Part shown: piece after piece, positions 12,001 to 15,000 of the stretch | Numbering within the stretch: the stretch's first letter is position 1 | Layout: the number at the start of each line of letters is the position of its first letter | Virus record (IMG/VR): IMGVR_UViG_2681813236_000002 | Length of the DNA stretch: 19,149 nt | Strand: one strand, 5' to 3' | Source: a virus | Taxonomy: Duplodnaviria > Heunggongvirae > Uroviricota > Caudoviricetes | Program-made: the position numbers

Positions 12001-15000
12001 ATCGGAGTAATCAGTAAACAGTCCGCCGCCAACAATAACATCATAACCGTGGTTACGTGTCGGTTGTCGCCCGTTATCTGTTCCTTCTGACCAGGCCACC
12101 ATATCGAGGAAAGCTTTACGCTGGGAATTTAGTACCTGCATAAATTACTCCTTAGAGCCACCAAACTTATTACCGATTACTCTCATTGCAGCCCCACGAA
12201 TTGCATCGACCCCGATCAGCCCAACGCCGCCACCAATGGCAACAGAAAGCGATTTAGGCCATCCGACATACTCAAGAGCGGATGCAAAAGTCAGCGTCAG
12301 AGCGCCACAGAGCAAAATCTCGAGCGTTTTTCGCTTCCAGCCACCACCACCGTCAAAATAGGCAATGCGCAAGCCAGCCATAACGATCGACATAATTACT
12401 GCGCCCAGCGGTGTGTCTCCATGCCACCAGCTCTGTAACAATTCAAGTAAGTCAGACCAGGAATGAGGATCGTTATGCATTTTCATAATTCCCACCTCCG
12501 GTTATCGGAAGTGCAACGAGTGAAGGGAAAGAAGCTGGTTATAGCGCTGAGTCGCAAAAGATGCGTAGTGCACAAAAAAGGCCGCCCACAGGCAGCCTCT
12601 TTTTATAATTCATTGAGTTAACAACATTTAAATGCTGGTGGTATAGAAGGTTTTTCACCAGAACGGCAAGCCGGACACCATGACTGAACGATATGCCTGC
12701 CGTCTCCCATATCCCTATAACCAAAGTCTATTGTTTTATAAAAAACGTGCACTCCGGCATCAGCAGAACAGTTTGGGCAAGATTTATATTCAACCCCTTC
12801 TTGTTCAACTTCTCGTGAATAGTTTAATGACTGCTCACAAACAGAACAACGCTCCACCATATATGCTCTCCTGTTTTTGATAGAGATTTATGGGTAGCAA
12901 TTCCATTCAAAAGAAACATTGAAGGGTGTCACTTTTTCAAAATGAGCGTAGCTGGCTGCCAGTTTTTTGTACAACACACTTTAAGGAAGGTGAGCCTTAA
13001 AAACACAATTGACATCAATAAAAAACCCGCTCGGTGGCAGGTTCTTGAAGATTATCAACGATAGACACACAAAGCCCATCATTAGGAGAATTCTAACCAG
13101 ATTTTTTGAAAAATGCAAGCATCATGTCGCCATCTTCGTCGAACATCATTTATCTTGTCACCTTTCTCAATTGTGTCTCTGCATATGCTTCTTCCTGCCA
13201 GCACTTTGTAACCAGTTTATCAATGACATCTGCATATCCTTTGTACCACTGATAATCCGTCAAGTCTGGTACCAGTTTCTGGACATGATGCCGCGCCAGT
13301 GTGGTTGGTAAACGGCTAAACCGGTTACCATTGCAACGCCCACAAATCTTATAAACAGGCGTACCATGAAGCCGGGTTCTTTTTTCATCCAGGACAATAC
13401 CTTTACCCTTACACCCTCTGCACGCTGTGCTGACTTCTCCCTTACCATAACAATGCTGACATAGTTCCTTCACCCACTCTTCCTTGATAACAGATTCCCC
13501 GCTTCTGGAGTGTTTCACCACTTCGCGCAATACATTATGAAATCCAGTACCAGCACAATGCTCACAGCGAGCCTTACTTGCCGCAGACCTGGAATAATCA
13601 GCAAAGGCAAAATTCACAAGGTAAGGAATGAGCTGTAGCCGGGTTTCTTCACTCAATTTATTCAATGTCGGGTTATCCAGTGCCATCGCGTAATTGAGCA
13701 GACCTTCAATCGCAAACTGAGGATCCTGAACACCAACTTTTGCTAGGAATAAGGCAAACCCAAGCGGTGCTTTCGACTGCACCATCCCCTGCGCAGCCAT
13801 CACATCCGTAATTGTTAAACCACCAGAGCCTGTCGCCGGTGCGTCATCGCTCAGTTTTGGAGATTTCGGGGAGTAATATTTCGGTAAGGCTTCAAGGTTC
13901 ATGCTCGTTCTCCACTTACGCCAGCACGCCTATTGCCAGCGCACGATCGATAAAACGAAATATCAGCTCCAGCTGGGAACCATACTTCTCTTCAAATGCC
14001 ACGGTATCCGCATGCAGCTCGTCGTGATGCTTTCTGCACAAAGGCAACACAAAGAGGTCATGCGCTTTTGTACCCATCCCGCCCTGACCGTGGCCTATCA
14101 GGTGGTGGGGATCATCAGCAGGCTTTCCACAACATGCACACGGCTGCGTCTTAACCCAGCGCGTGTACTTTTCGTTAACCCAGCGGCGACGTTTTGGGCG
14201 TAACATAAAAGACTCCGGCGACTCCGGATCCACTTTCAGCGCCAGCACCTTTTTCGCTTTATCCTGGATGATGCTGGTGGCAGGAACCGAAGGCACAAGG
14301 TCACTTTCCCGGGTGACAGACGGCACAACAGGCTTCGGTAATCTCAGTGCCTTACGGGCTGCACTTTCCGGTAAGGCATCCGCCAGGTCATTACGAACCA
14401 GCCACCAGCACAGTTCCGGCATTGTCACAACGTGACTATCATCAAAACCGAGATCCCGACGCACGACAGACAACACCCAGCGGGCACAGTTATCCGTTGC
14501 CATTGATTCCAGCCGTTCCGTGAACTGATCGCGCAGCTGGTTATCGCAGTGCCAGCACAGACGGATTGCGCCCGGCGCGTGTCGCATTGTGGTCATGTTC
14601 TCGCTGTGCCAGTCGGAATGAGGCCATTGGCAGCCTTTTTCACGAAGTAACCAGCTTTCAAGACATTCCACTCCACCAGCACGACGGATCACTGCCTCAT
14701 TGCGGAACACGGCCCGAACGGCAGGATCATCCGCCAGCGGTTGTGATGCCGCCGGAACGGCACCACTGGCAAAAGATGAATAACGTTCCGGCTCAGGCTC
14801 CAGCAGGACACGCCCCTGCATAAACAGGGGCATCAGCTCTGAACCGGGTCTGAACAATACGATCCCCATACGCGGGGCAATTTCAGGGGTCAGTAGTGCT
14901 CTCACGGTCACCTCAATGAACGGTATCGAGCAGCTTTAACAGCTCAGGGAATCGGGATTCGAAAAAGTGCGGCTGCGTCTCGCGCGGATTTGCGGGACTG

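What the first reader, a model, noticed from the sequence alone, without database searches (positions are those of the whole stretch)
12574..13118. Late control region: pR'-like promoter, short terminated leader, then a second terminator before the holin
Immediately after Q there is a sigma70-like promoter (TTGCAT-17-TAGAAT) followed about 60 nt later by a hairpin plus U-tract, the layout expected for a Q-utilisation site with a short 6S-like leader RNA. A second, stronger-looking bidirectional hairpin sits between the Cys-rich ORF and S. Two terminators in series would make expression of the lysis and structural genes strictly Q-dependent, and the Cys-rich ORF lies between them.
Basis: inference. 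Interest (0 to 1): 0.4.

Follow-up and report, generated by a model that had tools for sequence, protein, structure and literature searches.

The report
Phage late-gene switch, two terminators
This is the ordinary on-switch for the late (lysis and particle) genes of a lambda-like prophage: a promoter, a short terminated leader RNA and a second terminator in front of the lysis genes, with a small cargo gene of unknown function between the two terminators.

Summary
Thirty-one bases after the stop of a lambda-family Q gene (13902..13150, Pfam PF03589) lie TTGCAT (13118..13113), a 17-nt spacer and TAGAAT (13095..13090). The hexamers alone are unremarkable: 8/12 to consensus, about 35 equal-quality sites per strand here. 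But the segment is collinear with lambda pR': same spacer, six bases, then AATGATGGG (13083..13075). That matches lambda's +1 AACGATGGG, the sigma70-dependent pause element, and is near-invariant in about 90 related loci.

From that start a 63-66-nt leader folds into a 5' hairpin and a short GC stem plus U6 (13046..13020). Relatives keep the length and a terminator, with different stems. Homology among relatives stops at the end of this terminator and resumes at the holin's ribosome-binding site. The 520 bp between is a low-GC cargo cassette. It holds an 80-aa zinc-ribbon gene under purifying selection and a stronger terminator (12603..12574). Every cargo type examined has some terminator just before the holin.

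The verdict is a canonical Q/pR'/tR' switch with a cargo slot. Tandem terminators are common; the HK639 record annotates four. Nothing was tested experimentally. Residual novelty: the leader as an sRNA, and leak-through expression of the gene between the terminators.

The parts
13150..13902 (-). Q antiterminator gene (250 aa), Q-lambda family, YdfT/QuuQ type
   Evidence: Pfam PF03589 at E 1.2e-53. PDB 7ubm Q-lambda at E 8.9e-38, with the N-terminal 120 and C-terminal 90 residues aligned. PHROG 127.
13113..13118 (-). pR' -35 hexamer TTGCAT
   Evidence: Read directly. Unchanged in nearly all relatives printed. Aligns with lambda TTGACT.
13096..13112 (-). 17-nt spacer, the position of the Q-binding element in lambda pR' (candidate QBE)
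   Evidence: Same length as in lambda. A-run...TGG is shared with lambda. QBE location is from PMC6606751 and PMC9388147. Binding was not tested.
13090..13095 (-). pR' -10 hexamer TAGAAT
   Evidence: Read directly. Relatives have TAAGAT, TAGGAT, TAAAAT or TAAATT at the same place.
13075..13083 (-). Predicted transcription start (13083) and sigma70-dependent pause element AATGAT + GGG (+1..+9). The pause is predicted near +15 to +17 (13069..13067).
   Evidence: Aligns with lambda AACGATGGG at +1..+9; A, A, G, A, T, G, G, G are invariant. Role of the element is from PMC5001585. The pause position is inferred from the G(-10)/Y(-1)/G(+1) rule of that paper.
13057..13083 (-). 5' hairpin of the leader RNA (+1..+27)
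   Evidence: MFE fold, -9.9 kcal/mol alone. Kept in 22 variants, mostly through one-sided G-U/G-C changes plus one compensatory G-C to A-U change.
13020..13046 (-). First intrinsic terminator (tR'): stem AAGAACCUGC/GCGGGUUUUU, loop CACCGA, U6. It gives a leader RNA of about 63-65 nt.
   Evidence: The homologous element is annotated as a terminator in Ayreon and SfV. Relatives carry CCCGC/GCGGG, ACCGC/GCGGU, CCCGC/GUGGG or an unrelated CCUCGC-UUCG-GCGGGG hairpin at the same distance.
12499..13019 (-). Variable cargo cassette between the Q/pR'/tR' module and the holin module; GC 0.417 against about 0.50 in the flanks
   Evidence: Homology in 80 IMG/VR loci ends at 13020 and resumes at 12498. Only 5 of the 80 share this cassette. 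23 of 5426 E. coli genomes have it in this context.
12618..12860 (-). Cys-rich 80-aa ORF (zinc-ribbon-like, PHROG 7682, function unknown), with SD AGGAG at 12872..12868
   Evidence: PHROG 7682 at E 5e-58. 14 homologue clusters with C5, C8, C28, C31, H38, C62, C65 and C79 invariant. dN/dS 0.04-0.21. The same domain is fused to HNH, DGQHR/DndB-like or NOV_C modules elsewhere.
12574..12603 (-). Second intrinsic terminator: GAGGCUGCC-UGUG-GGCGGCCUU + U6, with an upstream A-tract (bidirectional in form)
   Evidence: The same terminator follows every homologue of the ORF, with a compensatory variant in L096. It precedes holins in Gifsy-1 and mEp390 without the ORF.
12145..12486 (-). Holin S (lambda family) with an MKM dual-start motif; first gene of the lysis cassette (R 12141..11665, Rz 11668..11204, Rz1 11448..11257)
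   Evidence: Pfam PF05106 at E 1.2e-27. ORF list. PGAP annotation of the 97%-identical E. coli locus.

Best explanation
This is the late-gene control region of a lambdoid prophage whose antiterminator belongs to the Q-lambda family.

By analogy with lambda, RNA polymerase starts at about 13083 from a promoter just downstream of Q. Sigma70 re-binds the -10-like AATGAT at +1..+6, and the enzyme pauses near +15 to +17.

Without Q, the polymerase goes on and releases a leader RNA of about 64 nt at the first terminator, which is predicted to be rather weak. Any polymerase that leaks through transcribes the small Cys-rich gene and is stopped at the second, stronger terminator 94 nt before the holin. 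The lysis genes therefore stay silent in the lysogen.

With Q, the protein binds the promoter spacer and loads onto the paused polymerase. It makes the enzyme resistant to both terminators and to the further terminator-like hairpins inside the late operon.

The two terminators have different origins. The first belongs to the conserved Q/pR' module. The second travels with a mobile, low-GC cargo cassette that also carries the Cys-rich gene.

Shown here: the sequence elements, their conservation, the module boundaries, and the coding status of the ORF. Inferred: the start site, the pause, termination, Q action and the leak.
For: - Q is a Q-lambda family member, with conserved N-terminal (nozzle-forming) and C-terminal regions (PMC9388147).
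- The promoter is collinear with lambda pR': the same 17-nt spacer, 6 nt, then AAYGATGGG. In one relative (L056) the lambda 6S leader is joined to this promoter exactly at AACGATGGG, so the two are interchangeable there.
- The leader folds at -23.6 kcal/mol, z = -3.4. Its length of 63-66 nt and its two-hairpin shape are kept in 32 distinct variants, including E. coli K-12 Qin ydfT.
- Relatives have different terminator stems at the same place, including a non-homologous replacement.
- The terminator is annotated in SfV and Ayreon.
- The module boundaries lie at 13020 and 12498.
- The second terminator is -12.3 to -15.2 kcal/mol against -5.8 to -8.4 for the first.
- All 26 relatives with this holin have a terminator 35-95 nt before it, using three unrelated hairpins.
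- HK639 has four annotated terminators between Q and the holin, and mEp390 has two in tandem.
- No sigma70-like site of 9/12 or better lies on the transcribed strand between the first terminator and S.
Against: - No transcript mapping or termination assay is available.
- The promoter hexamers are only 8/12, a quality that occurs about 35 times per strand in this window.
- The lambda-specific -35-like element (TTGACT between the -10 and the pause element) is absent; this sequence has TTCTCC.
- Q carries an extra zinc module of about 43 aa in the DNA-binding arm, so the details of promoter recognition may differ from lambda.
- Covariation in the leader hairpins is thin: one compensatory pair.
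- 'Weak first terminator' rests on folding energies only.
Confidence: 0.8

Rival explanations
1. The second terminator is mainly the private terminator of an autonomous moron. On this reading the Cys-rich gene has its own promoter in 12861..12981 and is expressed in the lysogen. The terminator exists to keep that transcription out of the lysis genes, not to back up tR'.
For: - The cassette is mobile and low in GC.
- In E. coli E7476 it sits behind two extra genes, with homology starting at 12981.
- The terminator accompanies the ORF in all homologous contexts.
- A gene made only as part of the late operon would not need a terminator right behind it (inference).
Against: - No sigma70-like site of 9/12 or better lies on this strand upstream of the ORF.
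- The conserved blocks in the aligned 5' regions of seven homologues do not form a -35/-10 pair at a workable spacing (my reading).
- The same terminator stands before holins that lack the ORF: Gifsy-1 and mEp390.
Confidence: 0.3
2. The 64-nt leader is itself the product: a trans-acting, Hfq-type small RNA made constitutively from pR' in lysogens. StxS of Shiga-toxin phages is such an RNA. On this reading the first terminator serves the making of the sRNA as much as gene control.
For: - Size and shape are conserved: a 5' hairpin, an AU-rich single-stranded linker, then a terminator hairpin with a U6 tail.
- The element is retained intact in the defective K-12 Qin prophage and matched in 1180 of 5426 E. 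coli genomes.
- There is precedent in PMC7547250, which also notes short pR' RNAs in lambda, 21, phi80, 82 and P22.
Against: - The conserved bases are those already required for the pause element and the terminator. The linker is the most variable part.
- There is no Rfam family.
- No binding or target data exist.
Confidence: 0.15
3. The hexamers and hairpins are chance matches with no regulatory role.
For: Promoter-quality hexamer pairs are common in the window. The generic scan did not flag any of the three elements.
Against: - The position is exactly downstream of a Q gene.
- The segment is collinear with lambda pR'.
- The elements are conserved across about 90 loci, with terminator replacement at the same place.
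- Recombination boundaries lie precisely at the element edges.
Confidence: 0.03

Closest known systems
Phage lambda Q - pR' - 6S RNA - tR' late regulatory cassette
   Same: - Same Q protein family.
- Same promoter geometry: -35, a 17-nt spacer that holds the Q-binding site in lambda, the -10, and 6 nt.
- Same pause element at +1 (AACGATGGG in lambda, AATGATGGG here).
- A terminated leader, then the S-R-Rz lysis genes of the same families.
- Lambda also has a strong hairpin followed by GUUUUG about 120 nt before S.
   Different: - The leader is about 64 nt, not 194 nt.
- The first terminator is far weaker: -5.8 to -8.4 against -24.3 kcal/mol.
- There is no TTGACT -35-like element upstream of the pause element.
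- Q has an extra zinc module.
- A cargo gene lies between tR' and S.
YdfT/QuuQ-type late regions: E. coli K-12 Qin, phages SfV, mEp460, Ayreon and Stx2c-converting phages
   Same: Q is 98-99% identical in protein in 80 IMG/VR loci. The 3' end of Q, the promoter, the leader and the terminator together are 90-92% identical in DNA; the promoter-leader-terminator stretch alone is 84-87% identical. The terminator is annotated in SfV and Ayreon. Ayreon also has a second annotated terminator after a cargo gene.
   Different: - The cargo downstream of the terminator is different in almost all of them.
- The window's first terminator has a U-G pair (CCUGC) where most have CCCGC.
- I found no experimental study of this promoter type in the paper library.
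Tandem terminators between Q and the holin in HK639 and mEp390
   Same: There are several intrinsic terminators in series between the late promoter and the lysis genes. The last one lies just before the holin. In mEp390 and Gifsy-1 it is homologous to the window's second terminator.
   Different: The HK639, mEp390 and Gifsy-1 records annotate other Q proteins (165 aa, 127 aa, and 'similar to phage 82 Q'). HK639 has tRNA genes and no Cys-rich gene in the interval.
Shiga-toxin phage late region (pR' - StxS - tR' - cargo stx - S)
   Same: A constitutive pR' is terminated at tR', giving a short RNA. The cargo gene sits between tR' and the lysis genes and is expressed through Q antitermination (PMC7547250, PMC8065619).
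   Different: - The best-studied Stx phages use a different Q family.
- The cargo here is a small zinc-ribbon protein, not a toxin.
- sRNA function is unproven here.
Morons of lambdoid phages
   Same: The cassette shows presence/absence polymorphism between conserved neighbours, a deviant GC content, and its own terminator (definition in PMC8065619).
   Different: No recognisable own promoter was found.

Membership tests
Q-lambda-type late regulatory cassette (Q, pR', QBE, SDPE, tR') | Q gene of family PF03589 directly upstream of the promoter | tested here: met
   Pfam at E 1.2e-53; PDB Q-lambda at E 8.9e-38. Family numbering is from PMC9388147.
Q-lambda-type late regulatory cassette (Q, pR', QBE, SDPE, tR') | Sigma70 promoter just downstream of Q | tested here: met
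   TTGCAT-17-TAGAAT starts 31 nt after the Q stop. It is only 8/12 to consensus, but it is conserved and collinear with lambda pR'.
Q-lambda-type late regulatory cassette (Q, pR', QBE, SDPE, tR') | Q-binding element between -35 and -10 | tested here: inconclusive
   The spacer length is identical and an A-run...TGG is shared with lambda. The contacted bases could not be compared, and Q has an altered arm. Binding is not testable here.
Q-lambda-type late regulatory cassette (Q, pR', QBE, SDPE, tR') | -10-like sigma70-dependent pause element in the initial transcribed region, followed by a G-rich segment | tested here: met
   AATGATGGG lies 6 nt after the -10, aligned with lambda AACGATGGG and near-invariant in relatives. 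Role is from PMC5001585.
Q-lambda-type late regulatory cassette (Q, pR', QBE, SDPE, tR') | -35-like element (TTGACT) just upstream of the pause element, needed by lambda Q | tested here: not met
   This sequence has TTCTCC at that place. PMC6606751 states that this element is absent from the late promoters of other lambdoid phages, so it is lambda-specific and does not define the family.
Q-lambda-type late regulatory cassette (Q, pR', QBE, SDPE, tR') | Intrinsic terminator downstream of the pause site | tested here: met
   A hairpin plus U6 at +38..+64, conserved or replaced at the same place in relatives, and annotated in SfV and Ayreon.
Q-lambda-type late regulatory cassette (Q, pR', QBE, SDPE, tR') | Q-dependent read-through of the terminators | not testable with these tools
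   Needs in vitro transcription or reporter assays.
Moron (autonomous cargo cassette) | Present in some relatives and absent in others, between conserved genes | tested here: met
   5 of 80 IMG/VR loci and 23 of 1180 matching E. coli genomes share the cassette.
Moron (autonomous cargo cassette) | Base composition different from the neighbours | tested here: met
   GC 0.417 against 0.47-0.51 for Q, S, R and Rz.
Moron (autonomous cargo cassette) | Own terminator | tested here: met
Moron (autonomous cargo cassette) | Own promoter | tested here: inconclusive
   None at 9/12 or better on this strand, and no conserved hexamer pair in the aligned upstream regions. Weak or non-sigma70 promoters are not excluded.
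pR'-derived regulatory sRNA (StxS-like) | Stable short RNA from pR' that binds Hfq and acts on targets in trans | not testable with these tools
   Only the predicted shape is available. No Rfam match.

The most novel reading that the evidence does not exclude
The two-terminator layout may be a leaky compartment, not just a double lock. A constitutive pR' with a deliberately weak first terminator would give the lysogen two products:
- an abundant 64-nt leader RNA that acts as a regulatory sRNA (StxS-like);
- through read-through, a low dose of the zinc-ribbon protein.

The strong second terminator would keep the holin off.

The protein is a stand-alone copy of a domain that elsewhere is fused to HNH nucleases and DGQHR/DndB-like proteins. 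It might therefore be a DNA-binding or anti-restriction factor.

In relatives whose called Q gene hits Pfam PF06530 (the Q21 family), the gene appears to lie inside the late leader itself, with this terminator as the only one.
Probability: 0.15. Interest if true: 0.45.

Novelty: new member of a known kind. Interest (0 to 1): 0.2.

Why it matters
It confirms that the window carries an apparently intact Q-dependent late switch of the YdfT/QuuQ type. This type is widespread in E. coli: 1180 of 5426 complete genomes match, including K-12 Qin and Stx2c phages. I found no experimental study of it in the paper library.

For annotation, it fixes the start of the late operon, the mosaic joints, and the cargo slot between tR' and the holin.

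The practical value is modest. The work gives a clean set of natural variants of the pause element, leader and terminator for anyone studying Q-lambda-family antitermination. It also flags a small conserved zinc-ribbon gene and a conserved 64-nt leader RNA as candidates for lysogen-expressed functions.

Tried and rejected
- **Generic promoter/terminator scan.** It listed none of the three elements. The promoter scores 8/12 against a 9/12 threshold. I infer that both terminators were missed because their stems can extend into the U-tracts. I therefore used folding and my own scan.
- **Rfam.** At gathering level over the whole window, and at E <= 1 over 12000..13400, there were only sub-threshold terminator-like chance hits: STnc430, AbsR25, Trp_leader and STnc250.
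- **tRNA genes.** They often occupy the Q-S interval, but none were found.
- **A peptide encoded in the leader (AUG at +2/+5).** Rejected: the frame ends after 2 codons in lambda and 11 in the Salmonella-type leader, and it runs through the terminator here, so it is not conserved (my reading).
- **Mechanical ORF 13118..12981 (45 aa, TTG start).** It starts upstream of the predicted transcription start and has no Pfam hit. I treat it as spurious.
- **Plus-strand terminator-like hairpin at 12950..12964.** The stem is broken in the E7476 copy, so it is probably chance.
- **Own promoter for the cassette.** None was found.
- **A resemblance I saw by eye** between the conserved block upstream of the ORF in the PF06530-type (Q21-family) prophages and the HK639 post-Q region. 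BLAST did not support it, so I claim no homology.
- **Literature.** Searches for ydfT/quuQ and for lambda's tandem late terminators found nothing usable. That lambda has tandem t'R sites is my own recollection and is unverified.
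Full report
**Orientation and observation**

All genes in this part of the window run on the minus strand. In the direction of transcription the order is:
- a DUF968/YdfU-like gene, 14911..13916;
- Q, 13902..13150;
- the region of the finding;
- holin S, 12486..12145;
- endolysin R, 12141..11665;
- Rz/Rz1, 11668..11204 and 11448..11257.

- TTGCAT 13118..13113, a 17-nt spacer, and TAGAAT 13095..13090, starting 31 nt after the Q stop.
- A hairpin with a U6 tract at 13046..13020.
- An 80-codon Cys-rich ORF at 12860..12618, behind a good AGGAG.
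- A second hairpin with a U6 tract at 12603..12574, with an A-run on its 5' side.

The finding's coordinates (12574..13118) run from the end of the second U-tract to the start of the -35.

**Is it more than chance?**

On consensus scores alone, no. The hexamers match 8 of 12, which is under the threshold of the generic scan. That scan listed neither the promoter nor either terminator. I counted 35 hexamer pairs of the same quality on this strand of the 19-kb window. I infer that the scan misses both terminators because each stem can be extended through its U-tract by pairing with an upstream A-run.

Folding gives a clearer picture:
- The leader from 13083 to 13012 folds at -23.6 kcal/mol (z = -3.4) into two hairpins.
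- The region around the second terminator folds at -23.1 kcal/mol (z = -3.7).
- The GC core of the first terminator is only -5.8 kcal/mol, or -8.4 with two A-U pairs.
- The second terminator is -12.3 to -15.2 kcal/mol, and lambda tR' is -24.3.

'Stronger-looking' is therefore right, and the first terminator is predicted to be modest.

**What the upstream gene is**

The 250-aa protein is a Q-lambda-family antiterminator: Pfam PF03589 at E 1e-53 and PDB 7ubm/7ubn Q-lambda at E 9e-38. The paper on those structures assigns PF03589 to the Q-lambda family, PF06530 to Q21 and PF06323 to Q82 (PMC9388147). [quoted passage not shown] Between them this protein has about 43 extra residues with a second CxxCxGxG zinc motif.

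**The promoter is a homologue of lambda pR'**

An alignment of this region with lambda, K-12 Qin, Ayreon, a Salmonella phage and two phages with a longer (273-aa) annotated Q protein shows one architecture. It consists of a -35, a spacer of the same length, a -10 (TAGAAT, TAAATT, TAAGAT, TAGGAT or TAAAAT), six bases, then AAYGATGGG.

In lambda that last motif is +1..+9. Its -10-like part is re-bound by sigma70 and anchors the pause at +16/+17 where Q loads (PMC5001585; PMC9388147). By alignment the start here is 13083. The G(-10)/Y(-1)/G(+1) rule of PMC5001585 fits a pause at +17 (13067). That is inference.

The lambda Q-binding element lies in the spacer (PMC6606751). This spacer shares an A-run and TGG with lambda's, but I could not test binding. 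The lambda-specific -35-like TTGACT next to the pause element is not present. The same paper says other lambdoid late promoters lack it.

**Conservation of the leader**

Megablast found the Q 3' end, promoter, leader and terminator at 90-92% identity in mEp460, SfV, Ayreon, PhiR47_1 and fifteen Stx2c-converting phages. Homology stops right after the terminator. The records of Ayreon and SfV annotate that hairpin as a terminator, and Ayreon also annotates a second one after a cargo gene. Of the complete E. coli genomes, 1180 of 5426 match part of the region. K-12 Qin has the same promoter, leader and terminator after ydfT.

From 80 IMG/VR loci with a Q protein 98-99% identical and the phage loci, I extracted 32 distinct leaders, leaving out the lambda-leader hybrid L056. 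All are 63-68 nt, most 63-66, with a 5' hairpin and a terminator.

The terminator stems vary while pairing is mostly kept: CCCGC/GCGGG, CCUGC/GCGGG here, ACCGC/GCGGU, and CCCGC/GUGGG. A few variants (for example L079 and L072) have clearly weakened stems. One lineage has an unrelated CCUCGC-UUCG-GCGGGG hairpin at the same place.

Formal covariation is thin. Most changes are one-sided G-U/G-C, with one compensatory G-C to A-U pair in the 5' hairpin. One locus (L056) joins this promoter to the lambda 6S leader exactly at AACGATGGG.

**Module boundaries and the cargo cassette**

In the 80 loci, similarity to the window ends at 13020, the last U of the first terminator. In those that share the holin, it resumes at 12498, the holin's ribosome-binding site. 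Only five loci share the 520 bp in between. Only 23 E. coli genomes have the whole arrangement, at about 96.5-97% identity.

The cassette has GC 0.417 against about 0.50 for S, R and Rz. In E. coli E7476 it lies behind two additional genes, and homology starts at 12981.

The first terminator therefore belongs to the Q/pR' module. The second terminator belongs to the cargo.

**The Cys-rich gene is real**

It is PHROG 7682, of unknown function. It has 14 homologue clusters down to 62% identity, with C5, C8, C28, C31, H38, C62, C65 and C79 invariant. dN/dS is 0.04-0.21. The model (pLDDT 78) has no informative structural neighbour.

A profile search found 285 clusters. Most are stand-alone proteins of 55-100 aa. 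Of the ten longer hits scanned, the domain sits at the N-terminus of five HNH nucleases (42% identity to one), at the C-terminus of one DGQHR/DndB-like protein, and on one NOV_C protein. A DNA-associated zinc-ribbon module is the best guess. That is a lead, not a function.

**The second terminator in context**

In five other contexts from Citrobacter-like and other enterobacterial prophages, the homologous ORF always lies directly before a holin of one of three different families. It is always followed by the same terminator. One copy has a compensatory variant and one, in an apparently decayed locus, is degraded.

The same terminator precedes holins in Gifsy-1 and mEp390 without the ORF. mEp390 has two terminators in tandem there, and the HK639 record annotates four terminators between Q and the holin.

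Among the 26 loci that share the window's holin, every cargo type has a terminator 35-95 nt before the holin start. Three unrelated hairpins fill the position. Lambda itself has a strong hairpin followed by GUUUUG about 120 nt before S. A last terminator in front of the lysis genes is thus a general design feature.

The upstream A-run that makes the window's copy bidirectional is not conserved.

**Mechanism proposed**

This is by homology with lambda, and the steps are inferred.
1. pR' fires.
2. Sigma70 re-binds AATGAT, and polymerase pauses near +15 to +17.
3. Without Q, most transcripts end as an RNA of about 64 nt.
4. Polymerases that leak through the modest first terminator transcribe the Cys-rich gene and stop at the second terminator.
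5. With Q, and probably NusA, polymerase ignores both terminators and the further terminator-like hairpins in the late operon. On this strand I saw candidates with U-tracts starting at 9830, 2583 and 1166.

I found no sigma70-like promoter for the cassette. Expression of the Cys-rich gene by leak or by Q is therefore more likely than from its own promoter. A weak promoter is not excluded.

**Comparison and novelty**

This is the textbook Q/pR'/tR' cassette. It belongs to the YdfT/QuuQ subtype, with a short leader and a cargo slot, as in Stx phages where stx sits between tR' and S (PMC8065619). It meets the family's defining sequence features, except that the Q-binding site could not be tested. 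The lambda-only -35-like element is missing.

I rate it a new member of a known kind, of low interest.

Two readings remain open. The conserved 64-nt leader may be an sRNA like StxS (PMC7547250). And the gene between the terminators may be expressed in lysogens through a leaky first terminator.

Noticed in passing
window 13150..13902 (-), residues about 120-160 of Q: Compared with lambda Q, this Q has about 43 extra residues carrying a second CxxCxGxG zinc motif in the DNA-binding 'arm'. There is a sub-threshold DnaJ_CXXCXGXG hit, and the lambda alignment splits into two blocks. Recognition of the promoter spacer may therefore differ from lambda.
   Followed up: no
window 12618..12860 (-); proteins P0079, P0083, P0125 and others: The Cys-rich domain also occurs fused to HNH endonucleases (N-terminal, 42% identity), to a DGQHR/DndB-like protein and to a NOV_C protein. 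This suggests a DNA-binding or DNA-modification-sensing zinc ribbon. The stand-alone phage copy could be a regulator or an anti-restriction decoy (speculation).
   Followed up: partly
L093, L095, L096, L098 (about 150 nt upstream of the ORF homologue); L101 (mEp390) 1386..1430: In prophages whose called Q gene hits Pfam PF06530 (Q21 family: L093/L094, L096/L097, L098), reverse-oriented cassettes lie between Q and a conserved block, TAACGCG..CGCAA..TAnnnT..TTAAGAGTGG. The cassettes are M78 peptidase+HTH, RelA_SpoT+NA37, and two genes with no Pfam hit. L095 has the same block behind HEPN+GmrSD genes, with no Q inside the fetched stretch. In L096 and L098 there is no room for a promoter right after Q. 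In mEp390 the block is followed within about 90 nt by two terminators and the holin. The block may be the late promoter, displaced up to 2 kb from Q, with the Cys-rich gene inside the leader. BLAST showed no similarity to the HK639 post-Q region.
   Followed up: partly
L056 (IMG/VR), just after Q: A natural hybrid: the YdfT-type promoter is joined to the lambda 6S leader exactly at the shared AACGATGGG. The pause element thus acts as a recombination joint between late-control modules.
   Followed up: no
window 10575..11132 (-): A 185-aa ORF after Rz/Rz1 has low GC (0.389), belongs to PHROG 6169 (unknown function), and has a weak PADLOC hit to PD-Lambda-6 (E 0.003). It is a second cargo gene, at the position lambda uses for bor.
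   Followed up: no
window, minus strand, U-tracts starting at 9830, 2583 and 1166: There are further strong hairpin+U-tract candidates inside the late operon (-14.5, -16.8 and -19.4 kcal/mol). Q-modified polymerase would have to read through them.
   Followed up: no
L103 (E. coli K-12 MG1655, Qin prophage, downstream of ydfT): The defective Qin prophage keeps an intact promoter, a 63-nt leader and a terminator of this type. The small gene ynfS lies on the opposite strand downstream of ydfT.
   Followed up: no
window 12950..12964 (+): A weak terminator-like hairpin on the opposite strand, upstream of the Cys-rich ORF, was listed. The stem is not kept in the E7476 copy, so it is probably chance.
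   Followed up: partly
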